Assembly (NCBI GenBank): GCA_937949615.1
Contig: CALEDQ010000008.1
Span: forward strand, 243,586 to 307,585
Reading direction: 5' to 3'
Length of the DNA: 64,000 nt
Source of the DNA: an uncultured bacterium
GTDB taxonomy: Bacteria; Muiribacteriota; Ozemobacteria; Ozemobacterales; Ozemobacteraceae
The notes under the pieces are model-generated. The model searched no databases, was not told the origin of the DNA, and worked only from the letters and a program-made list of their open reading frames with translations. A program made the translations under genes and the position numbers. Shown here piece after piece: positions 56,444 through 64,000 of this stretch. The first letter of the stretch is position 1. Each line of letters opens with the position of its first letter.

Positions 56444-59254
56444 ATGCAGAGTCAGCAGACAACCAGCAGCCTGACCGAAAAACTCACGCTGTTTTTCATG
56501 ATCGCTGCCATATTTGCGACAGTTTTATGGGGTCTCGAATCATGGTTCGAAACCCGCATTAATTCATACCAAAACGACCTGCAGACCCGGCGCCGGCAAC
56601 TGACAGAAAGTATTGCCGCTGTCACCGAACCAGAACTTTTCATCACCCGCAGTATCCTGCCGGTGCTGCGCCAGGTAAGCGAAAATCCGCAAATCGACCT
56701 CGATAAGCTGCGGTCACAACACCTGCAGAAAAACCACCTCGACATGACCATGTATCAGTTCGATGCCCGAGGCGAACTGACCAGAACCGCTCCGACCCGT
56801 GCTCCCAATCTGTGGTTGATGCGCAACCTGTTCACCAGCCTGCGCGAAACCGATATCCGCAAGGTTTCGCAGGCCCGCAAAGGCCTCGACAAAAAACTCG
56901 AATTCGCTTTCGGCTTCGGCAAAGATCTCAACTCGATTCGCGAAAACCCCGAAACCATAATCAACACGGCCTCTGGCGACAAAGAGGGCATGCTCGCCTG
57001 GACCAGTCGCCCGAACGGTGGCCTGATCATCACCTGCCAGGAAGCCCCCAAAGCCCGCGACATCTTTCGCTTGCGGCCAGAGATTCCTTCATCAGACTCG
57101 ACCCTTGTCAAAACCGGCATCCTGGCAACCGTCAACAATGGTCTCACATTGGCCGGACAGGCACACGCCTTTCTGGCTCGGGCCGGCCTCGATACCGGAC
57201 AATATGCCGGCCAGCAATGGTTTTTTGTCAGCACTCGCAGCGCCCGCAAGGTTTTTGCCGCCTTCCGGACACTGCCATGCCCGTTCACCCGCGCTCTACA
57301 CCTGATCAGACTGGTAATCGCCGCAGCCGCCCTCGCGATCATGCTCTTTTTTGCCATTGCCGGCACCAGCATGGCTGTCAGCCTGAAAAAACTGGTTATC
57401 ACCATGTTTTTCGCCTCGTCGTTGATACCGCTCAGTGGTATTGCCTCAACGACCCTCGACAACCTCGATGTTTTCACACAGATTCACAACAACAAAACCA
57501 GAGCCGCCAAAGAAGAGACTCTGAGCAACATGGTACAAAACTTCAACAAACACCTGGCCTCAAGTTCTGCAACCCTGGTTCGCCTCACCGAAAACCCGGG
57601 CAACGGCGGCAAAGACCCGTCGACTCTGCAGATGAACCGTGCAATCACCGCCATTTTTCCAGAAGCGCGCGTCACCCTGCGCAACTCCGCCGGCGATCTG
57701 ATCTTTTCCAACAGCCCCGATTTTTCATCAGGCCGCGAAACGGTTTTCAAATCACTGTCACGCCGCCTGGTCGAACGCTACATCCCCGAAAGACTCGATG
57801 AACACAAATACAACGGCAACCCGTTTTCCGATTCCATGGTTCGCAAAGATGACATGGGTTTCGGTACCCTGCTGAACTACCCGAATCGACTGCAGTTCGT
57901 CAGAACCGGCAATTCCGAAATGCTGCTGTTTTACCGGCTGCTGCCGGCTGCAAAAGGCCCCGCCGCCATTGCCCAGATCGAATTGTCGACCAGCGCCACC
58001 GTAAAACGCTACCTCAAAATCGTCGGCCGCCAGCCGATCACCGTCGACAACAATGCCATGACGATCTCAGCCTTCTACCCCAAAGGCTTCCGCTGGTCAC
58101 TGCCCCCATCTGCCCAGCACCAGAAAAGAATCCTGCAGATTGCCGAAGCCGCCCATGTAACCGGCAAAGCTCAGTTCAGAAGATTGACCGGCGATGTCGA
58201 CGGCTTTGCCTTATGTATCCCCGCTTCCGAACTGGCGGGAAACTGCCTCGTAGCCTTCAGTTCAGCCCAGCCACTCGACGAAGCACTTGCCCGCATGAAA
58301 ATCCGTATTCTGACAGGCACCGTCATTGCCCTGATTCTCCTGATCTCTGTGGCAACCTGGATTTCCCGGCAGCTGATCAGCCCGCTCAGCGACCTGGAAT
58401 CCGGTATCAAAGCTCTGGCTGCCCGCAATTTCGAAACCCGTCTCAGTGTCCCCCCCGGCAAAGATGAGCTCTCGCAACTGTTTCACGCCTTTAACGACAT
58501 GATGGCCGAAAGCTACGACATGCAGATCGCTCACAGCGTCCAGGAAGGCCTGGTGCCCAGCGAATTCCCGGAAATCGCTGACTACAGCATTTTTGGCATG
58601 CTGCAGTCAGCATCCGATCTCGGCGGCGACTGCCTCGACTGCTTTCTTCTTCCCAATGGCCATCTGCTGTTCCTCGTCGGCGATCTGACCGGTCATGGTG
58701 TCGGATCGGCCCTGATGATGGCTTTTGCCCGCGCCGTCACCTTTCACTGGAGCCAGAAAGGCAACCTCACCCCCGCCAGCCTCGTCGATCAGATCGACAA
58801 CATGCTGCGCGAAAACCGCACCGAACGTATGTTCATGGGCATCATCTGCGGCGTGCTCAACCCCGAAAGCCACGAAATCGAACTGGTAACCAAAGGGCAC
58901 ATCTACCCGTTAAAAGTTTCGGCTGACGGCAAATGCGCCTGGAAAGGCCAGCCGGCCTACCCACTCGGCATTGCCCGCCAGACTGCAGCCACCTCGTTCA
59001 GATTCACCATGAATCCTGGCGATGGACTGCTGTGCATGACCGATGGCTTTCTCGAAGCCTACAACCGCCAGCTGCGCACCATAGGTTTCGATGGCATCGA
59101 AGAATGGGCGGCCGCAACCGCCGGCAACGATGCCCGAGGCTGGGTGCAGGCCCTTGAAACCAGATTTAAAACCTGGTGTGATAACCGGCAGTCCGACGAC
59201 ATTTCGATCTTTGCCCTGAAACGCCAGGCGGAGGCAGATAAGCATGTCAGCTGA
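56444..59254 (+). CDS. Membrane-anchored signalling protein: large N-terminal sensor region, HAMP domain, C-terminal PP2C-type (SpoIIE/RsbU-like) serine phosphatase
   Basis: Transmembrane helices 'LFFMIAAIFATVLWGL' and 'AAALAIMLFFAIAGT'. HAMP 'ISPLSDLESGIKALAARNFETRLSVPPGKDELSQLFHAFNDMM'. PP2C motifs 'DLGGDCLDCF', 'LVGDLTGHGVGSA', 'GDGLLCMTDG'. Confidence 0.8.
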   Translation: MQSQQTTSSLTEKLTLFFMIAAIFATVLWGLESWFETRINSYQNDLQTRRRQLTESIAAVTEPELFITRSILPVLRQVSENPQIDLDKLRSQHLQKNHLDMTMYQFDARGELTRTAPTRAPNLWLMRNLFTSLRETDIRKVSQARKGLDKKLEFAFGFGKDLNSIRENPETIINTASGDKEGMLAWTSRPNGGLIITCQEAPKARDIFRLRPEIPSSDSTLVKTGILATVNNGLTLAGQAHAFLARAGLDTGQYAGQQWFFVSTRSARKVFAAFRTLPCPFTRALHLIRLVIAAAALAIMLFFAIAGTSMAVSLKKLVITMFFASSLIPLSGIASTTLDNLDVFTQIHNNKTRAAKEETLSNMVQNFNKHLASSSATLVRLTENPGNGGKDPSTLQMNRAITAIFPEARVTLRNSAGDLIFSNSPDFSSGRETVFKSLSRRLVERYIPERLDEHKYNGNPFSDSMVRKDDMGFGTLLNYPNRLQFVRTGNSEMLLFYRLLPAAKGPAAIAQIELSTSATVKRYLKIVGRQPITVDNNAMTISAFYPKGFRWSLPPSAQHQKRILQIAEAAHVTGKAQFRRLTGDVDGFALCIPASELAGNCLVAFSSAQPLDEALARMKIRILTGTVIALILLISVATWISRQLISPLSDLESGIKALAARNFETRLSVPPGKDELSQLFHAFNDMMAESYDMQIAHSVQEGLVPSEFPEIADYSIFGMLQSASDLGGDCLDCFLLPNGHLLFLVGDLTGHGVGSALMMAFARAVTFHWSQKGNLTPASLVDQIDNMLRENRTERMFMGIICGVLNPESHEIELVTKGHIYPLKVSADGKCAWKGQPAYPLGIARQTAATSFRFTMNPGDGLLCMTDGFLEAYNRQLRTIGFDGIEEWAAATAGNDARGWVQALETRFKTWCDNRQSDDISIFALKRQAEADKHVS

Positions 59255-62114
59255 TAAACGACGCCTTTCTGCATCTTTTGGCCGGCTCGGCCTCATCTTT
59301 GCCGGTATTCTTCTGCTGTTCGTCTCATTGACCGCATCGCAGACCGCCGAAAAGCTGCAGCGCGAACATGAAAGACAGTTGCTGAAAACCCTCGAATACA
59401 GCCTTGATCCGTTGATTGCCGCCACCTCTGATGAATCGTACATTTTCAACCGGATTACTTCTCTCGTAGAAGCCGCAAGAAGCGGCGGCATCGATGGCTC
59501 CGGACTTGCTGAAGCCGTCAAAACAGCCTCCGATACTTTCAGCGTGTCTGTAAAAGCCTTTTTTTACAGAAACATGCAGCTGCAAAGATCTTTCAACGCC
59601 TCATCGACTGAACTGCCGTTGTTTGAAAGTCTTATGGCTGACCTTAACCAGACCGAAACAGCCTTTGAAGAAGCACAGCGGCGTGTACATCAGTCACTGC
59701 TCGACAATTTCGGTTCCGGTCATCGGTTAGAATTGATGAGCGCCTCCCGGGGTACACAGAAACGTTATAAATTCCGCGAGGCAGATCAGTTCTACTATTG
59801 GAACAGCTGGCCAGACGGGCTCGGAGTTTTTATAATCGTCACCGGCTTTCCCGATTTTCTTGAGCGATTCGCAAAAATCGAAACCGACCGCAGAATCTTC
59901 GGCGCCGGCACCCCTTCAGACGGCCGCTATTCTCCACCGGCCGGCGTTACTGCAGACCAGACCGCGGCCGCCCATATCAAAGCCAAACTCAATGGCCAGA
60001 ATCATACCGAAGCCTTCGACCGCATCTGGCTGTTCCAGGAAGACGAAACCGGCAGCTTCTGGTGCCGCGTCATGTCATTGTCTGAGGCAGCACACAGCCG
60101 CCCGGTATGGGCCGACTGGCTTTTACTGTTGTCAGAAGCCCTGCTGCTCGTTTCTGTCGTTTTCTATCTGACCGCCATTGCCGGTCTCAAACCCGGTGCC
60201 TCGGTTGCTGCATGGCTTGATTCGCTGTCGATTCGTTACCGTCTCATGGGTCTCTTCTCCATGGCCTCGGTTTTTCCCGTGCTGCTGTCAGTTCTGATCG
60301 GTGCAACTTCGCTCGCCGACCGGCGCGAGGTCATAGAAAACAGCGTGATTGCCGAATCAATCTCTGCCATAGAACCGCTAGAAAAGATGTACAACATCCG
60401 CATCGCTCAATCAGAGGCTCTCGGGCGTGACATCCGCCAGGCACTCCTCACAGAGCCACCCTCCGAAGAAATGTTCCAACGCTACCTTAAAAAGCATTCG
60501 CTGCCCAGATTTCTTGCCCGTCTTGAGGTCAGAGACGGTGACGGCCAGACAATCTTTTCGACCGATGACCGCCAGGTGCATGGCGTTGCCGAAGCCATGG
60601 ATATTCTCAGCCGCATGACAATCAAACTGCACTCGCCTCACAGGATGAGCCCGGCTGCCGCCACCAGGGTTTCGCCCGCCGAAATCGTCAGCGAATCGGT
60701 CATGTCGACAGACGAAATCGGTATGGCGACCATCATGCGCCTGCGCGGCCGCCAGTGGCACTTCCACATGGGCACCTTTCCCACCACCTGGTTCTGGGAT
60801 GTTTACCCTGAGATAGCCAGCGGGCCGGGCTTCATGTGCCAGACCAATCAGCTCCTCGAAATCTACCTCAAACAGGTCGAAGAAACCCTTGGCCAGGCCC
60901 GTGTCAGCAGCGACACCCTACAGCTGGCAACCGAATTGAACTACCATTTCAGCAGCTTTAGAATCTTTCCGAACTACAGCTTTCTTCCCGAAAATAAACT
61001 GCTGAAGGCCGCCATAACCAGTTTTCGCACCAACCGGGTGCTGTTTCGTGAAATTGAAGCCGCCGGGCAGAAATGGTGGCTGACCTGCAAACCCGAAAAA
61101 AATATCAACTCGCACGTTTTTATGCACCTGATCTCGCAACCGGCACGACTGCAGGCTCTGGAACCTTTCAAATGGCGCCTGCTGGCCGGCGGTATTTTTG
61201 CCCTGATCATCTCTCTGCTTGGCGCCATGCTGATTACCAGGCTGATAATTCTGCCGGTCGGTGACTTGAATTCTGGTATAACCGCGATCAGAGAGCGCCG
61301 CCAGGATTTTCGCATTCCTTTCCGCCGCGATGACGAATTTGGTGCGCTGGCAAACGCTTTCAACAAGGTTATCGGCGAGCTTAAAGAGCTTGAATACGGC
61401 CGCATCGTCCAGGAAAGCCTGCTTCCACGTGCTGCAATCGTTCCAGAAGGCTATGACATCGCATTCTTCAACACTTCGGCAACCGACCTGGCCGGTGACT
61501 ACCACGACTGCGTCAGACTCAACGACGGCCGCCTGGCAATGGTTCTCGGCGACGTCACCGGCCACGGCATATCAGCAGCACTGGCGATGGCGATGGCCAA
61601 AGCCACGGTGAATTACGCCGCCGCTGACGGCAAATTGTTCCCGGTCGGAGTTATGGATATGCTGAACGCCCTGTTTAACCGTGAGCTCAAACCGCGGCAC
61701 AAATTCATGACTCTGGTTACCATCGTTCTCGACCCTGCCAGCGGCAAAATCGAGGTCGATAACGCCGGCCAGTCATACCCGAGGTTTTACAAAGCCGCCG
61801 AAGACTGCTCAGAAGAAATCGAGCTGCCAACCATGCCGCTCGGCGCCATGAAAAAACGCCGCAGTAAAATCGAAACCCGTGTAATGCGATCCGGTGATGC
61901 CATGATACTGTATTCTGACGGCATCATCGAATGCAGCGACGCCACCGGCGACATGTACGGCTACAATCGCTTCAGCGACAGTTTCGAACGACTGATGCGT
62001 GCGAAAACCCCGGCAGACAAAGCTCTGCGCGAAATGATGTGTGAGCTCGACACTTTCAGAGTCCCCGGCCCATACCCCGACGACGTCACTCTGGTAATCA
62101 TTCGAAAACTCTGA
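59244..62114 (+). CDS. Paralogous membrane HAMP-PP2C (SpoIIE/RsbU-like) phosphatase, overlapping the previous gene by 11 nt
   Basis: Same architecture: HAMP 'ILPVGDLNSGITAIRERRQDFRIPFRRDDEFGALANAFNKVIGEL'; PP2C 'DLAGDYHDCV', 'VLGDVTGHGISAALAMAMA', 'GDAMILYSDG'. Confidence 0.8.
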   Translation: MSADKRRLSASFGRLGLIFAGILLLFVSLTASQTAEKLQREHERQLLKTLEYSLDPLIAATSDESYIFNRITSLVEAARSGGIDGSGLAEAVKTASDTFSVSVKAFFYRNMQLQRSFNASSTELPLFESLMADLNQTETAFEEAQRRVHQSLLDNFGSGHRLELMSASRGTQKRYKFREADQFYYWNSWPDGLGVFIIVTGFPDFLERFAKIETDRRIFGAGTPSDGRYSPPAGVTADQTAAAHIKAKLNGQNHTEAFDRIWLFQEDETGSFWCRVMSLSEAAHSRPVWADWLLLLSEALLLVSVVFYLTAIAGLKPGASVAAWLDSLSIRYRLMGLFSMASVFPVLLSVLIGATSLADRREVIENSVIAESISAIEPLEKMYNIRIAQSEALGRDIRQALLTEPPSEEMFQRYLKKHSLPRFLARLEVRDGDGQTIFSTDDRQVHGVAEAMDILSRMTIKLHSPHRMSPAAATRVSPAEIVSESVMSTDEIGMATIMRLRGRQWHFHMGTFPTTWFWDVYPEIASGPGFMCQTNQLLEIYLKQVEETLGQARVSSDTLQLATELNYHFSSFRIFPNYSFLPENKLLKAAITSFRTNRVLFREIEAAGQKWWLTCKPEKNINSHVFMHLISQPARLQALEPFKWRLLAGGIFALIISLLGAMLITRLIILPVGDLNSGITAIRERRQDFRIPFRRDDEFGALANAFNKVIGELKELEYGRIVQESLLPRAAIVPEGYDIAFFNTSATDLAGDYHDCVRLNDGRLAMVLGDVTGHGISAALAMAMAKATVNYAAADGKLFPVGVMDMLNALFNRELKPRHKFMTLVTIVLDPASGKIEVDNAGQSYPRFYKAAEDCSEEIELPTMPLGAMKKRRSKIETRVMRSGDAMILYSDGIIECSDATGDMYGYNRFSDSFERLMRAKTPADKALREMMCELDTFRVPGPYPDDVTLVIIRKL

Positions 62115-62317: not shown

Positions 62318-62348
62318 AAAGGGCCCGGAAAACCGGGCCCCAATTTTC
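62318..62348. terminator. Bidirectional rho-independent terminator
   Basis: 'gggcccgg-aaaa-ccgggccc' is a perfect 8-bp GC stem, preceded by 'aagaaaa' and followed by 'caattttc'. It sits between convergent genes. Confidence 0.7.
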
Positions 62349-62375: not shown

Positions 62376-64000
62376 TTACTTCTTGGTGCGGAGAGAATCG
62401 TATTCCTTTTTGGCTGCGTTCATCGCTTCGGCAACCTTGAGAGCGTCATCCTGGCGACCCTGGCGCAGCATTTCGTTATAGAGTTTGTAAAGTTCCTGAT
62501 ACTTGCTGTAGGCAAGCGCAACTTCTGATTCATAATCACCAACGACTTCGCCACTGATGGTAACAGTATCGTTCTGGCTGGCAGTCGGGGCGGGAGTAGA
62601 TTCGTCGCCACCGATGGTAATCACACCACCGCCAACCGGTACGCCAGCGCCGGTGGGCATTGCGATTTCGGGCATATTGGCCGGGCCATCTTTGCGGAAC
62701 ATACCGGCGATTTTCTGAGCGGCCCAGTTACCGAGGTAACCACCGACCATACCACCGACAATTGTGCCCACGGGGCCGAGGAACGAACCAAGAGCGGCAC
62801 CGGCGGTAGAACCAATAGCCTGACCGGTTACGCCAACCCAGTCAATTCTCTTGAAAGCTTCGCGGATCGAGAATTTGCCATTCTTCAGGTCGCCGGCGAC
62901 ATAAGCACCGACTGAAGAACCGACGATTGAACCGAACGAAGGAGCAAGGGCGCTGAGAACACCACCGACAACCGGTACTGCGCTCAGGAACGGAACAAAG
63001 AATGAACCTGCAGCTGCACCGAGAACGGCACCACCGACGCCACCGGCGAATTCGGCGCTGCATACGGTCTTGAGAGCTTTCTTCATGCTGGGCTTTTCAC
63101 CGCGCATGATCTGGGTAGCCAGGTCAACACCAACGGTGATACCAGCGGTGATAAGAATGTTCTTGGCACTGAAGCCTGACTTGAGGCTGTCTTTAACATT
63201 CTGAATACCCTGGTTGGTCATACCCTTACCGGTTTCGTAACCGGCTCTGAATTTGTCACCGACAGTCGCCTTGTTGCCAGAAGCCTGAGCGGCGTCATCA
63301 GCAACCGAACCGGCACCGGCAGCACCGGCCTGAGCAACGTCATCAGCTGTTGAACCAGCGGCAGCCACATCGTCAGCGGTTGAGCCGGCGGCGGCAACAT
63401 CGTCAGCGGTAGAACCGGCAGCTGCAACGTCGTCAGCAGTTGAACCGGCGGCCTGAGAACTCTGTGAGCTCTGAGAAGAAGAACCTGACTGAGCAACGTC
63501 ATCAGCAACTGAACCACCGGCGGGCGGGTCCATCAGACCGCGCTTGATAGCTTCTTCGTGTGAAATGAAGCGGCCGGTCTGCGGATCTCTGGGGTGTCTT
63601 GCGGCATCCCAGGTTGTTTTGGTGGTTGAAGTTTCAGAAGTGGTGGTAGTGGTAGTCTTGCTGGTTGAAACATTTGAAGACTGACCGGCGGCGGCCACGT
63701 CATCAGCAACGGTGCCGGCACTTACGGCATTACCCTGTGAAGACGAAACCGGAGCATTCGTATTGCCGCTGGTAGAAGTAGAACCAGCCTGAGCAACGTC
63801 ATCTGCTACCGAACCGGCTGATACGTTTGAACTGCTCTGAGAGTTAGAAACGGTTGAACCTGAGCTCTGAGTCGAGCCGGCAGCCACGTCGTCCGCCAAA
63901 GAACCGGCGGCAGCAACGTCATCTGCAGTTGAGCCGGCAGCCGCATTGGTGCTGCTCTGAGAATTTGAACTGGTTGAGCCTGAGCTCTGATTTGAACTGC
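62376..64000 (-). CDS. Large repetitive Ala/Asp/Val/Ser-rich protein with tandem 'AAGSTADDVA' repeats and a Gly-rich hydrophobic (glycine-zipper-like) C-terminal region; N-terminus beyond the window end
   Basis: The track 'M' at 63899 is a TTG (Leu) inside an open frame that continues to 64000 with more 'ADDVA' units. C-terminal 'GGVGGAVLGAAAGSFFVPFLSAVPVVGGVLSALAPSFGSIVGSSVGAYVAG...GTIVGGMVGGYLGN' and a coiled-coil-like end. Confidence 0.55.
   Translation of the reverse strand, partial: SSNQSSGSTSSNSQSSTNAAAGSTADDVAAAGSLADDVAAGSTQSSGSTVSNSQSSSNVSAGSVADDVAQAGSTSTSGNTNAPVSSSQGNAVSAGTVADDVAAAGQSSNVSTSKTTTTTTSETSTTKTTWDAARHPRDPQTGRFISHEEAIKRGLMDPPAGGSVADDVAQSGSSSQSSQSSQAAGSTADDVAAAGSTADDVAAAGSTADDVAAAGSTADDVAQAGAAGAGSVADDAAQASGNKATVGDKFRAGYETGKGMTNQGIQNVKDSLKSGFSAKNILITAGITVGVDLATQIMRGEKPSMKKALKTVCSAEFAGGVGGAVLGAAAGSFFVPFLSAVPVVGGVLSALAPSFGSIVGSSVGAYVAGDLKNGKFSIREAFKRIDWVGVTGQAIGSTAGAALGSFLGPVGTIVGGMVGGYLGNWAAQKIAGMFRKDGPANMPEIAMPTGAGVPVGGGVITIGGDESTPAPTASQNDTVTISGEVVGDYESEVALAYSKYQELYKLYNEMLRQGRQDDALKVAEAMNAAKKEYDSLRTKK
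63290..63950 (-). repeat. In-frame tandem and dispersed approximately 30-nt repeats encoding 'A(A/Q)AGS(T/V)ADDVA'
   Basis: Four perfect-phase 30-nt units at about 63335-63454 ('gcaacgtcatcagctgttgaaccagcggca', 'gccacatcgtcagcggttgagccggcggcg', 'gcaacatcgtcagcggtagaaccggcagct', 'gcaacgtcgtcagcagttgaaccggcggcc'). At least six degenerate copies lie between 63290 and 63950, and the pattern continues past 64000. Confidence 0.8.

What the first reader, a model, noticed from the sequence alone, without database searches (positions are those of the whole stretch)
62376..64000. Large low-complexity protein with in-phase 30-nt tandem repeats ('AAGSTADDVA') and a glycine-zipper-like hydrophobic C-terminus, truncated by the window end
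Four perfect-phase 30-nt DNA repeats, plus at least six degenerate copies, encode an Ala/Asp/Val/Ser/Thr-rich array interspersed with Ser/Gln/Asn-rich spacers. The C-terminal 250 aa instead hold Gly-rich small-residue helices ('GGVGGAVLGAAAGSFF...GTIVGGMVGGYLGN') and a coiled-coil tail. Repeat arrays like this are prone to copy-number change, and short-read assemblers tend to collapse them. The protein could be a surface/S-layer-like or phage-derived structural protein, or a membrane-inserting toxin-like element. I cannot assign a family.
Basis: seen in the sequence. Interest (0 to 1): 0.6.

Follow-up and report, generated by a model that had tools for sequence, protein, structure and literature searches.

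The report
Riflebacteria exported repeat protein, glycine-zipper anchor
This is a real, strongly conserved gene of an uncultured Riflebacteria bacterium: a 659-residue exported envelope protein with a small head domain, a variable acidic repeat spacer and a conserved glycine-zipper membrane module, belonging to an uncharacterised family so far seen almost only in that phylum, which is interesting but not extraordinary.

Summary
A minus-strand ORF (stop at 62376-62378) stays open to the window end. It carries four in-phase 30-nt units (63333-63452) encoding AAGSTADDVA x4, and six more dispersed G-S-[TV]-ADDVA copies. Downstream come a Gly-zipper helical region and a C-terminal helical hairpin.

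A contig from the same strain (2219/2220 nt identical) supplies the missing end. Only 119 residues are lacking, so the protein is 659 aa, not "large". It starts with a Sec-type signal peptide and a ~56-aa conserved head domain.

The gene is coding and under purifying selection (dN/dS 0.03-0.11 in the module). The tandem run varies from 3 to 5 copies among near-identical strains.

The conserved part is a ~200-aa module: an internally duplicated Gly-zipper helical hairpin, followed by a linker and a helical hairpin. It defines a family whose taxon-labelled members are mostly Riflebacteria. Other members carry different N-terminal regions.

The repeats align in register with the DotG/IcmE decapeptide repeats but score below Pfam's threshold. 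A conserved island in the spacer resembles a single plakin repeat.

Best reading: an exported, membrane-anchored envelope tether. Phage, S-layer and toxin readings are not supported. The physiological role and the membrane involved remain unknown.

The parts
62376..64000 (-). Partial CDS (C-terminal 540 of 659 codons plus the stop codon). The 5' end lies 357 nt beyond the window.
   Evidence: Open frame. It is 539/540 identical to P0238 residues 120-659. The same-strain contig L038 gives the ATG and a GGAG ribosome-binding site.
62320..62341 (-). Terminator-like GC-rich hairpin followed by a T-run, 35 nt after the stop codon.
   Evidence: 9-pair stem with 8 G-C pairs, then TTTCTT. This is a pattern match only.
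63291..63998 (-). Low-complexity acidic/polar spacer. This is the in-window part of the 271-aa linker, which is S 22%, A 21%, D 10%, net charge about -20.
   Evidence: Composition. Hypervariable in length and sequence among 37 loci. Still coding: dN/dS 0.07 against L001 over 90 unambiguous codons.
63333..63452 (-). Four tandem in-phase 30-nt units encoding AAGSTADDVA x4.
   Evidence: TRF. The units differ only at synonymous sites. The run has 3-5 units in closely related strains. In-register similarity to DotG/IcmE decapeptide repeats. Pfam Decapeptide scores 24-26 bits, below the cutoff of 45.
63879..63932 (-). Two adjacent degenerate copies (GSTADDVAAAG, GSLADDVAAG).
63789..63812 (-). Dispersed copy SVADDVAQ.
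63690..63713 (-). Dispersed copy TVADDVAA.
63489..63512 (-). Dispersed copy SVADDVAQ.
63285..63308 (-). Last, degenerate copy SVADDAAQ, at the junction with the conserved module.
63525..63611 (-). Conserved island in the spacer: WDAARHPRDPQTGRFISHEEAIKRGLMDP. The core is W-D-P-x-x-HPRDPxTG[RK]F, extended by a plakin-repeat-like stretch.
   Evidence: Pfam Plectin PF00681 scores 22.1 bits against a cutoff of 20.5. phmmer against desmoplakin and periplakin gives E 0.002-0.36. Conserved in most loci, while the surrounding sequence is not.
62691..63290 (-). Conserved ~200-aa Gly-zipper helical module that defines the family.
   Evidence: 60-98% identity across 37 loci. The profile finds 100 cluster representatives at E<=1e-10. 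AF2 with a 74-sequence alignment gives pLDDT 85-91, all helices. dN/dS 0.03-0.11.
62880..63086 (-). Gly-zipper helical hairpin 1 (model helices 69-97 and 109-137).
62697..62840 (-). Gly-zipper helical hairpin 2 (model helices 151-171 and 173-198). It contains the Pfam Gly-zipper_Omp match at 62709-62825.
   Evidence: hhalign of hairpin 1 against hairpin 2 gives probability 96.4%, E 1e-9, over 41 columns.
62541..62690 (-). Variable G/P/T/V-rich second linker, predicted disordered.
   Evidence: pLDDT below 50 for model residues 209-251. Variable in the alignment.
62379..62540 (-).
   Evidence: Model helices 253-276 and 280-303 at pLDDT ~95. Conserved Y..Y..Y pattern. Local Foldseek matches to ROP-like hairpins are generic only.

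Best explanation
The gene encodes a 659-aa exported envelope protein of a Riflebacteria bacterium, a diderm lineage. It is built as head, spacer and anchor.

Proposed sequence of events:
1. An N-terminal Sec-type signal peptide (MRKKTLRVLSSLMCLFFLASLFQAPLMA|A) sends the N-terminal part across the cytoplasmic membrane.
2. That part consists of a ~56-aa beta-rich head domain and a ~270-aa acidic, S/T/Q/N-rich, probably disordered spacer.
3. The spacer is studded with about eleven G-S-[TV]-ADDVA motifs and one conserved WDPxxHPRDPQTGRFISHEEAIxRGLMDP island.
4. The conserved C-terminal module holds the protein in a membrane and probably drives self-association through glycine-zipper helix packing. 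The module consists of an amphipathic helix, a polar helix and two homologous Gly-zipper helical hairpins.
5. The terminal Tyr-rich helical hairpin provides a further interaction or dimerisation surface.

On this reading the protein works as a tether. A membrane-fixed base displays a small head and multivalent short motifs on a flexible line that can reach across the periplasm. The layout resembles IM-anchor/spacer/distal-domain proteins such as DotG/VirB10, TonB or TolA, but with reversed polarity.

The spacer evolves by slippage or recombination of its 30-nt units (3-5 tandem copies among strains), while the two ends stay fixed.

What is shown: the coding status, the architecture, its conservation, the copy-number variation and the internal duplication.

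What is inferred: export, membrane insertion, oligomerisation and the tether role. I slightly favour the cytoplasmic membrane, but which membrane is involved is not decided.
For: Full-length architecture:
- Taken from the same-strain contig L038 and from P0238.
- The signal-peptide-like N-terminus has the highest hydropathy in the protein (KD 2.06, crude Hessa sum +1.5).
- It is conserved in the full-length loci.
- By a crude hydrophobic-run test, about 100 of 146 profile-search hits, some of which share only the Gly-zipper, also have one.

Extracytoplasmic N-terminal parts: family members P0139 and P0144 carry ComEA-type HHH_3 domains behind a signal peptide.

Conserved ends, hypervariable spacer:
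- Seen in the 37 loci and the 21-sequence alignment.
- dN/dS is 0.03-0.11 for the module, 0.04-0.15 for the hairpin and 0.07-0.35 for the spacer.

Module structure:
- All-helical at pLDDT 85-91 with the deep alignment.
- 15 GxxxG motifs.
- Pfam Gly-zipper_Omp matches 24 of 87 profile-search hits scanned.
- The two hairpins are homologous to each other.
- K/R-rich segments flank both hairpins and the turns are short and neutral (sequence).

Spacer: the repeats resemble the DotG decapeptide repeats in register. The number of DotG repeats also varies between strains (PMC6761968).

Host and context:
- Riflebacteria are diderm Terrabacteria (preprint 10.1101/2021.05.31.446380), and an AcrB-type RND pump lies in the window.
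- The gene looks monocistronic, with a terminator-like hairpin downstream.
- The chromosomal context is conserved.
Against: - No experiment, and no homologue of known function.
- No signal-peptide or topology predictor was available. The Gly-zipper helices are only marginally hydrophobic (crude Hessa sums +3.4 to +6.9 kcal/mol), similar to the helices of SlyB, which end up in the outer membrane. The target membrane and even stable integration are therefore uncertain.
- K/R-rich segments lie on both sides of the polar helix 42-62, so the positive-inside rule does not fix a topology.
- The head domain matches no family, so no ligand can be named.
- Very high conservation of an 'anchor' suggests the module has a function of its own, such as a channel or complex subunit, which the tether idea does not explain.
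- No conserved operon partner was found for this orthologue group.
Confidence: 0.45

Rival explanations
1. The whole protein is exported. The two Gly-zipper hairpins then insert from the periplasmic side into the outer membrane (or the outer leaflet of the inner membrane) and oligomerise. This would be functionally like SlyB/PCP-type Gly-zipper lipoproteins, which form rings or nanodomains that stabilise the outer membrane.
For: - The hairpin helices are as weakly hydrophobic as SlyB's.
- All K/R-rich flanks could sit on one face, with short neutral hairpin tips.
- Pfam Gly-zipper_Omp, Rick_17kDa_Anti and YMGG matches occur among the profile-search hits scanned.
- Riflebacteria are diderm.
Against: - There is no lipobox at the signal-peptide cleavage region (sequence).
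- hhalign against E. coli SlyB gives 13.6% probability over 13 columns.
- No known route would take a non-lipoprotein helical protein to the outer membrane.
- The Pfam match is at or below the cutoff.
Confidence: 0.2
2. A Sec-secreted pore-forming bacteriocin or toxin. Its conserved C-terminal Gly-zipper domain would depolarise target membranes, and the variable N-terminal part would mediate targeting. Comparable cases are CdzC/D, TelE, EsxX and pore-forming colicins.
For: - Gly-zipper motifs are required for the toxicity of several membrane-depolarising effectors (titles and abstracts listed: PMC10434224, PMC12744356, PMC5380434).
- The N-terminal regions vary while the C-terminal module is constant.
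- There is strain-level variation.
Against: - No small immunity-like gene is conserved next to it. The neighbours are convergent HAMP-SpoIIE genes, and the upstream genes vary.
- The module is under strong purifying selection.
- It is present as conserved syntenic orthologues in many species, with two paralogue groups per genome.
- There is no PADLOC hit and no toxin-family hit.
Confidence: 0.1
3. A surface fibril or S-layer-like protein whose repeat spacer is displayed outside the cell, possibly glycosylated on its S/T-rich stretches.
For: - A signal peptide is present.
- There are long S/T/Q/N-rich low-complexity stretches.
- Length is hypervariable among strains.
Against: - No SLH domain, S-layer domain, autotransporter, sortase signal or secretion-system signal is detectable.
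- The hydrophobic module would keep the protein in a membrane.
- No route across the outer membrane is evident.
Confidence: 0.07
4. A phage-derived structural protein (tape-measure-like) or prophage remnant.
For: - The profile matches a phage tape-measure protein in the PDB over 55 Gly-zipper positions (E 1.8e-4).
- PHROG matches include a tail-associated lysin family (E 1e-5).
- A tape-measure-like protein with an SLT domain (P0152) appears among the weak profile hits.
Against: - All these matches cover only 35-55 Gly-zipper residues.
- There is no significant BFVD fold match.
- The neighbourhood is chromosomal (RND pump, arginine deiminase, PP2C phosphatases) and syntenic across species.
- The protein has a signal peptide.
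Confidence: 0.03

Closest known systems
[quoted passage not shown]
   Same: - Both have a 10-residue period with an in-register consensus. Here it is A-G-S-T-A-D-D-V-A-A; in DotG it is A-G-F-[ST]-A-x-[ED]-L-K-x.
- In both, the repeats sit in a variable middle region between a membrane-embedded end and a conserved distal end.
- In both, repeat number differs between species and even strains (PMC6761968; here).
   Different: - The score is below Pfam's cutoff (24-26 bits against 45). The best single stretch scores only 16 bits; the low full-sequence E-value sums many repeat-on-repeat matches.
- The hydrophobic F and L of DotG are S and V here.
- Only 4 units are tandem; the rest are dispersed.
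- There is no TrbI/VirB10 domain and no T4SS genes nearby.
- Polarity is reversed, with the anchor at the C-terminus.
Glycine-zipper membrane domains (Pfam Gly-zipper_Omp PF13488, Rick_17kDa_Anti/SlyB, YMGG)
   Same: Both have helix-turn-helix hairpins rich in GxxxG / small-xxx-small motifs. The Pfam match falls on hairpin 2.
   Different: - The match is borderline (25.2 and 24.9 bits against 25).
- There is no lipobox.
- No homology to E. coli SlyB is detectable.
- Here two homologous hairpins are fused with two further helices and a C-terminal helical hairpin in one conserved ~300-aa unit.
Plakin (plectin) repeat, PF00681, of eukaryotic cytolinkers (desmoplakin, periplakin, plectin)
   Same: DPQTGRFISHEEAIKRGLMD matches the repeat core DPxTGxxLSxxEAxxxGLID. 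It scores above Pfam's cutoff (22.1 against 20.5) and hits desmoplakin and periplakin chains.
   Different: - There is a single ~21-residue copy inside a disordered bacterial spacer, not an array of 4.5 repeats forming a globular plakin repeat domain.
- The part conserved across the wider family is the preceding WDPxxHPRDPxTG[RK]F, not the plakin-like helix.
- Common descent is unproven.
Periplasm-spanning anchor-spacer-head proteins (TonB, TolA, VirB10). This is a functional analogy only.
   Same: Both have a membrane-embedded end, a long low-complexity spacer of variable length, and a small conserved distal domain, in a diderm envelope.
   Different: There is no sequence or fold relationship. 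Polarity is reversed, the anchor has several Gly-zipper helices rather than a single TM helix, and no ExbBD/TolQR-type partner lies nearby. This comparison rests on general knowledge and was not tested here.
Glycine-zipper membrane-depolarising toxins (CdzC/CdzD, TelE, EsxX)
   Same: Both have a Gly-zipper-rich hydrophobic C-terminal region (papers listed).
   Different: There is no LXG or other trafficking domain, no type I, VI or VII secretion context and no immunity gene. The gene is a conserved core-like chromosomal gene under purifying selection.
Tim17/Tim22/NDUFA11 four-helix Gly-rich membrane fold
   Same: This is the recurrent top group among the (non-significant) Foldseek PDB matches for both models.
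   Different: E-values are 0.4-5 and TM-scores are at most 0.4. This is not evidence of relationship.

Membership tests
Pfam Gly-zipper_Omp (PF13488) | hmmscan score at or above the curated gathering score (25 bits) | tested here: inconclusive
   The window fragment scores 25.2 bits and full-length P0238 scores 24.9 bits. Of 87 profile-search hits scanned, 24 match at E<=1e-3, the best at 1.7e-10.
SlyB / 17-kDa-antigen type Gly-zipper lipoproteins | Lipoprotein signal peptide with a lipobox Cys | tested here: not met
   The signal peptide ends ...LFQAPLMA|AVE. The only Cys (SLMC) lies inside the hydrophobic core and has no L-[AS]-[GA]-C context (read from the sequence).
SlyB / 17-kDa-antigen type Gly-zipper lipoproteins | Detectable homology to SlyB | tested here: not met
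   hhalign of the family alignment A4 against E. coli K-12 SlyB gives probability 13.6% over 13 aligned columns.
DotG/IcmE decapeptide repeat region (PF25296) | Score at or above the gathering score (45 bits) | tested here: not met
   24.2 bits and 25.6 bits. NCBIfam T4SS_IcmE_DotG scores 12.4 bits against a cutoff of 750.
DotG/IcmE decapeptide repeat region (PF25296) | 10-residue period with an in-register consensus | tested here: met
   phmmer alignments to IcmE chain 7muc_AG pair AGSTADDVAA with AGF[ST]AxELKx repeatedly. The best single stretch scores only 16.2 bits.
DotG/VirB10 | C-terminal TrbI/VirB10 domain and a T4SS gene context | tested here: not met
   No such Pfam or NCBIfam hit. 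The neighbours are PP2C phosphatases, arginine deiminase and an RND pump.
Plakin/plectin repeat (PF00681) | Single-repeat match above the gathering score | tested here: met
   22.1 and 21.5 bits against 20.5, covering profile positions 13-33 of 39. Desmoplakin E 0.002.
Plakin repeat domain | Tandem array of about 4.5 repeats forming a globular domain | tested here: not met
   There is one copy in the window protein. A second, shorter RDPQTGRFISRD copy present in some strains lacks the helical part.
Pentapeptide repeat proteins | Match to a Pfam pentapeptide repeat model | tested here: not met
   No pentapeptide family was listed at E<=0.1. By eye, the repeat also lacks the central L/F expected from the recalled A[DN][LF]xx consensus; that consensus is from memory and was not tested.
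Pore-forming bacteriocin / polymorphic toxin | Linked immunity gene, and a recognised trafficking or toxin domain | tested here: not met
   No conserved small neighbour across 37 loci. No toxin or defence family hit.
Phage tape measure / tail protein | Full-length similarity to a phage family, and a phage gene neighbourhood | tested here: not met
   PHROG hits cover residues 508-556 only. The PDB tape-measure match covers 55 positions. BFVD best E is 0.28. The context is chromosomal.
S-layer / SLH-anchored surface protein | SLH or another S-layer anchoring domain | tested here: not met
   None found in Pfam or NCBIfam scans of the fragment or the full-length protein.
Sec-exported protein (signal peptide) | n-region with K/R, a hydrophobic core, and a small-x-small cleavage site | tested here: inconclusive
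   The sequence MRKKTLRVLSSLMCLFFLASLFQAPLMA|A fits by eye and by hydropathy. No SignalP-type predictor was available.

The most novel reading that the evidence does not exclude
The conserved C-terminal unit (two homologous Gly-zipper hairpins plus a helical hairpin) could be a previously undescribed, largely Riflebacteria-specific membrane-anchoring and oligomerising domain. The phylum would use it to display many different exported N-terminal parts, for example ComEA-type DNA-binding domains, HExxH-containing regions and other repeat arrays. On this reading, this particular protein is a reverse-polarity periplasm-spanning tether. Its DotG-like decapeptide repeats and plakin-like island would act as multivalent docking motifs, and its reach would be tuned by repeat copy number.
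Probability: 0.25. Interest if true: 0.55.

Novelty: new variant of a known kind. Interest (0 to 1): 0.35.

Why it matters
Riflebacteria are uncultured diderm Terrabacteria. They are reported to have the highest load of unknown gene families per genome of any phylum (PMC10849945). Their envelope biology is known only from gene inventories.

A strongly conserved, multi-paralogue family of exported proteins sharing one membrane module is a concrete handle on that envelope. It could turn out to be an anchoring device, an oligomeric channel, or a stabiliser of membrane domains.

The gene is also a clean natural example of a protein whose two ends are frozen while its spacer changes repeat number between strains. 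Its repeats echo the unexplained decapeptide repeats of DotG.

Practically, the locus is an assembly hazard. Public assemblies carry a frameshift in this region (P0002) and an in-frame stop codon next to it (L001). Several also have runs of N (collection masking or scaffold gaps) in or beside the repeats.

If it is simply one more hypothetical membrane protein, little is lost. The finding is solid as an observation but only moderately surprising.

Tried and rejected
1. Named-family assignment. Pfam, NCBIfam, PHROGs and PADLOC gave only borderline or motif-level hits.

2. PDB by sequence, with a single sequence and with a profile. The only hits were the DotG repeats, a 55-residue tape-measure Gly-zipper match and plakin repeats. 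Nothing matched the head domain.

3. Structure.
- The first AF2 run with 21 sequences was poor (pLDDT 61).
- The second run with 74 sequences was good (pLDDT 80).
- Foldseek against PDB and BFVD found nothing significant.

4. SlyB homology: rejected by hhalign.

5. 'Cargo' claim for lytic transglycosylase/LysM. I dropped it after checking. The SLT-bearing hit P0152 is a tape-measure-like protein that shares only the Gly-zipper. MATCAP, LysM and HMA_2 hits were not traced to verified family members and are not used.

6. Operon partners. None is conserved for this orthologue group. The pseudopilin cluster next to the paralogue group is separated by 150-600 nt and is inverted in one genome, so it is treated as neighbourhood only.

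7. The last large-database search, with the 41-aa plakin-like island, returned nothing because of the word filter (an earlier 36-aa attempt was too short).

8. RNA families in the region: none.

9. No sigma-70-like promoter was found upstream in L038.

10. Magnetosome-protein idea (Gly/Leu-rich Mms/Mam proteins; Riflebacteria appear in a magnetosome gene-cluster paper listed). I considered this from memory. There is no supporting neighbour or hit, so I did not pursue it.
Full report
**1. What is in the sequence**

The feature lies on the minus strand. Translating window 62376-63998 (-) gives 540 sense codons followed by a stop codon at 62376-62378. The frame is still open at base 64000.

Tandem Repeats Finder reports one array with a 30-nt period: 4.0 copies at 63333-63452, 82% matches, no indels, score 156. 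It encodes AAGSTADDVA four times.

Six further copies of the core S-[TVL]-ADD[VA]A are dispersed at 63909-63932, 63879-63902, 63789-63812, 63690-63713, 63489-63512 and 63285-63308. S/Q/N/T-rich stretches lie between them.

The four tandem DNA units are not identical. They use different synonymous codons for the same peptide. The repeat is therefore maintained at the protein level and is not a very recent duplication.

Downstream come three parts:
- a ~200-aa region with 15 GxxxG and 22 small-xxx-small-xxx-small motifs;
- a G/P/T-rich linker;
- a Tyr-rich C-terminal segment.

A GC-rich hairpin followed by a T-run lies 35 nt after the stop codon. No Rfam family matches the region.

**2. Extending the gene and identifying the organism**

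The C-terminal 304 aa recover 37 loci in species-representative genomes. Most are labelled Candidatus Riflebacteria, Rifleibacteriota or Ozemobacteraceae. The few with other labels (Erysipelotrichia, Methylomirabilis, Avigastranaerophilus) show the same synteny, so they look mislabelled or misbinned.

Protein P0238 (659 aa) is 539/540 identical to the window fragment, starting at its residue 120. Its contig L038 matches the window with 1 mismatch in 2220 nt.

The gene starts 357 nt beyond the window, at an ATG preceded by GGAG. The missing 119 residues are:
- a Sec-type signal peptide (MRKKTLRVLSSLMCLFFLASLFQAPLMA|A), which has the highest hydropathy in the protein;
- a ~56-aa conserved domain (IPVRVGNQTLNVTPGQWVSVRSGTQITHYNVRFVDGKPVALEMSQYTKLIFG), which matches no Pfam family and no solved structure.

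**3. It is a real, constrained gene**

I computed Nei-Gojobori dN/dS against nine orthologues.

| Region | dN/dS |
|---|---|
| Gly-zipper module | 0.03-0.11 |
| C-terminal hairpin | 0.04-0.15 |
| Repeat spacer, closest orthologue (90 unambiguous codons) | 0.07 |
| Repeat spacer, more distant orthologues (alignment less certain) | up to 0.35 |

**4. Repeat dynamics**

Among orthologues that are >=98% identical in the C-terminal 304 aa, total length ranges from 645 to 696 aa. The tandem GS[TV]ADDVA[AQ][AS] run has 3 units (P0229, P0230), 4 units (window, P0238 and others) or 5 units (P0246, P0247). A ~38-aa segment containing a second RDPQTGRFIS motif is present or absent.

Across the 37 loci the spacer varies from about 200 to 600 aa. 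ADDVA-type repeats occur only in the window's clade; other clades have unrelated S/Q/T/G-rich sequence. The motif occurs in no other gene of the window or the loci.

Public assemblies show problems in or next to this region:
- a frameshifted product (P0002);
- an in-frame TAA where the window has TCA (L001); this lies in the plakin-like island, beside the repeats rather than in them;
- runs of N in or beside the repeats (L007, L009, L010, L013). These may be masking by the collection or scaffold gaps.

**5. The conserved module**

The first AlphaFold2 run used 21 sequences and was poor (pLDDT 61). A 74-sequence alignment raised the mean pLDDT to 80, with 85-91 across the module.

The model shows:
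- an amphipathic helix (model residues 10-39);
- a polar helix (42-62);
- two helix-turn-helix hairpins (69-97/109-137 and 151-171/173-198);
- a disordered stretch (209-251);
- an antiparallel helical hairpin (253-276/280-303, pLDDT ~95).

The two hairpins are homologous to each other (hhalign probability 96.4%, E 1e-9, 41 columns). Shared composition may inflate that score.

Pfam Gly-zipper_Omp matches hairpin 2 at the cutoff: 25.2 bits for the fragment and 24.9 bits for the full-length protein, against 25.

**6. The family**

A profile of the module, searched against 1.84 billion cluster representatives, finds 484 proteins at E<=1e-3, 100 at E<=1e-10 and 52 at E<=1e-30.

Of the ten distant hits I looked up, the four that carry an organism label are all Riflebacteria or Ozemobacteraceae.

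The head domain occurs only in the closest subset (8 of 146 representatives). Most other members keep an N-terminal hydrophobic leader (about 100 of 146 by a crude test) but carry different N-terminal regions:
- ComEA-type HHH_3 domains (P0139, P0144);
- HExxH-containing regions with no Pfam match (P0043, P0050, P0144);
- other repeat arrays (P0070, P0073, P0079).

Weak hits such as the SLT-bearing P0152 are tape-measure-like proteins that share only the Gly-zipper, and I excluded them.

Within Riflebacteria genomes there are at least two paralogue groups:
- The window's group is followed by two convergent HAMP-SpoIIE genes, arginine deiminase and an RND pump.
- The other group lies next to a four-gene cluster that includes prepilin-type (N_methyl) proteins.

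**7. The two small similarities inside the spacer**

(a) The decapeptides align in register with the DotG/IcmE repeats: AGSTADDVAA against AGF[ST]AxELKx. The full-sequence E-value (4.5e-17) sums many repeat-on-repeat alignments. The best single stretch scores 16 bits, and Pfam's Decapeptide model scores 24-26 bits against a cutoff of 45. This is a resemblance, not membership. DotG's middle repeats also vary in number between Legionella species and strains (PMC6761968).

(b) WDAARHPRDPQTGRFISHEEAIKRGLMDP is an island of conservation in the spacer. Its second half passes Pfam's Plectin threshold (22.1 against 20.5) and hits desmoplakin and periplakin. There is only one copy, however. The part conserved across both paralogue groups is the preceding WDPxxHPRDPxTG[RK]F. 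I regard it as a short docking motif or mini-domain of unknown partner.

**8. Mechanism**

The architecture is signal peptide, small head, long acidic flexible spacer, conserved hydrophobic helical module, helical hairpin. That makes this an exported, membrane-held envelope protein. Riflebacteria are diderm Terrabacteria.

I commit to a tether or display role, with self-association through Gly-zipper packing (confidence 0.45).

Which membrane is involved is not decidable here:
- The zipper helices are only marginally hydrophobic (crude Hessa sums +3.4 to +6.9 kcal/mol). That is like the helices of SlyB, which reach the outer membrane.
- K/R-rich segments flank both hairpins.
- They also lie on both sides of the polar helix, so the positive-inside rule does not settle between a 5-TM N-out/C-in topology and hairpin insertion from the periplasm.

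The very high conservation of the module suggests it does more than anchor.

Rivals:
- A SlyB-like outer-membrane oligomer (0.2) remains open.
- A toxin (0.1) is disfavoured by the absence of any conserved immunity-like neighbour, strong purifying selection and core-like synteny.
- A surface fibril or S-layer protein (0.07) lacks any anchoring or secretion domain.
- A phage origin (0.03) rests only on Gly-zipper motif matches.

**9. Verdict**

The gene is a member of an uncharacterised, apparently phylum-restricted family. It is linked to known biology only through the glycine-zipper motif class and through sub-threshold DotG-like and single-copy plakin-like similarities. I rate it a new variant of a known kind, with interest 0.35.

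Noticed in passing
L001 9728-9730 (equivalent to window ~63567-63569): The closest species-representative genome (JANJUX010000016.1) has an in-frame TAA where the window has TCA, inside the plakin-like island. This splits the orthologue into two ORFs. It is either an assembly or consensus error, or a real nonsense allele.
   Followed up: partly
P0002 (NCBI MASR1M12_15410); window alternative-frame ORFs 63218-63517 (-) and 63533-63721 (-): A deposited orthologue contains 'VRPALLMTWPPPVQPVPT', which is the ADDVA repeat read in another frame. This is a frameshift in that assembly. The same off-frame ORFs appear in the window's mechanical ORF list and are artefacts of the repeat.
   Followed up: partly
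L007, L009, L010, L013 (upstream part of the orthologous genes): Runs of N fall in or immediately beside the repeat spacer in four genomes. They could be masking by the collection or scaffold gaps. If they are gaps, they are consistent with assembly trouble in this array.
   Followed up: no
window 56444-62114 (+); L038 818-3713: The gene is flanked by four SpoIIE-type PP2C phosphatase genes. Downstream and convergent are two tandem HAMP-SpoIIE genes (936 and 956 aa) that overlap by 11 nt. Upstream, beyond the window, are a SpoIIE gene and a Tll0287-like+SpoIIE gene, preceded by a B12-binding-domain protein. The downstream pair is syntenic in about 19 loci.
   Followed up: partly
L023, L024, L026, L029-L032 (paralogue group B), e.g. 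L024 1307-5769: The second paralogue group lies 150-600 nt upstream of a four-gene cluster. The cluster encodes a TM protein, an ~850-aa protein with an N-terminal hydrophobic segment, and two prepilin-type (N_methyl motif) pseudopilin-like proteins. The cluster is inverted in L031, so this is neighbourhood rather than a proven operon.
   Followed up: partly
record titles of L007, L014, L016, L017; names of P0002, P0005, P0027: Several MAGs carrying 65-98% identical orthologues, some with Riflebacteria-type synteny, are labelled Methylomirabilis, Erysipelotrichia, Avigastranaerophilus, Clostridiales or Pusillimonas. These are probably mislabelled or contaminated bins.
   Followed up: no
window 63588-63613 (+): A terminator-like hairpin on the plus strand lies inside the coding region, on the antisense strand of the gene (11-pair stem plus T-run). 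The number of such sites does not exceed the shuffle expectation, so it is probably chance.
   Followed up: no
P0070, P0073, P0079 (distant family members): These relatives replace the ADDVA spacer with 4-6 long repeats of the type 'KKWATTPIEGGGxDSAxFxKGYKFGxEAP', separated by S/T/A-rich stretches. This is a different repeat solution in front of the same C-terminal module.
   Followed up: no
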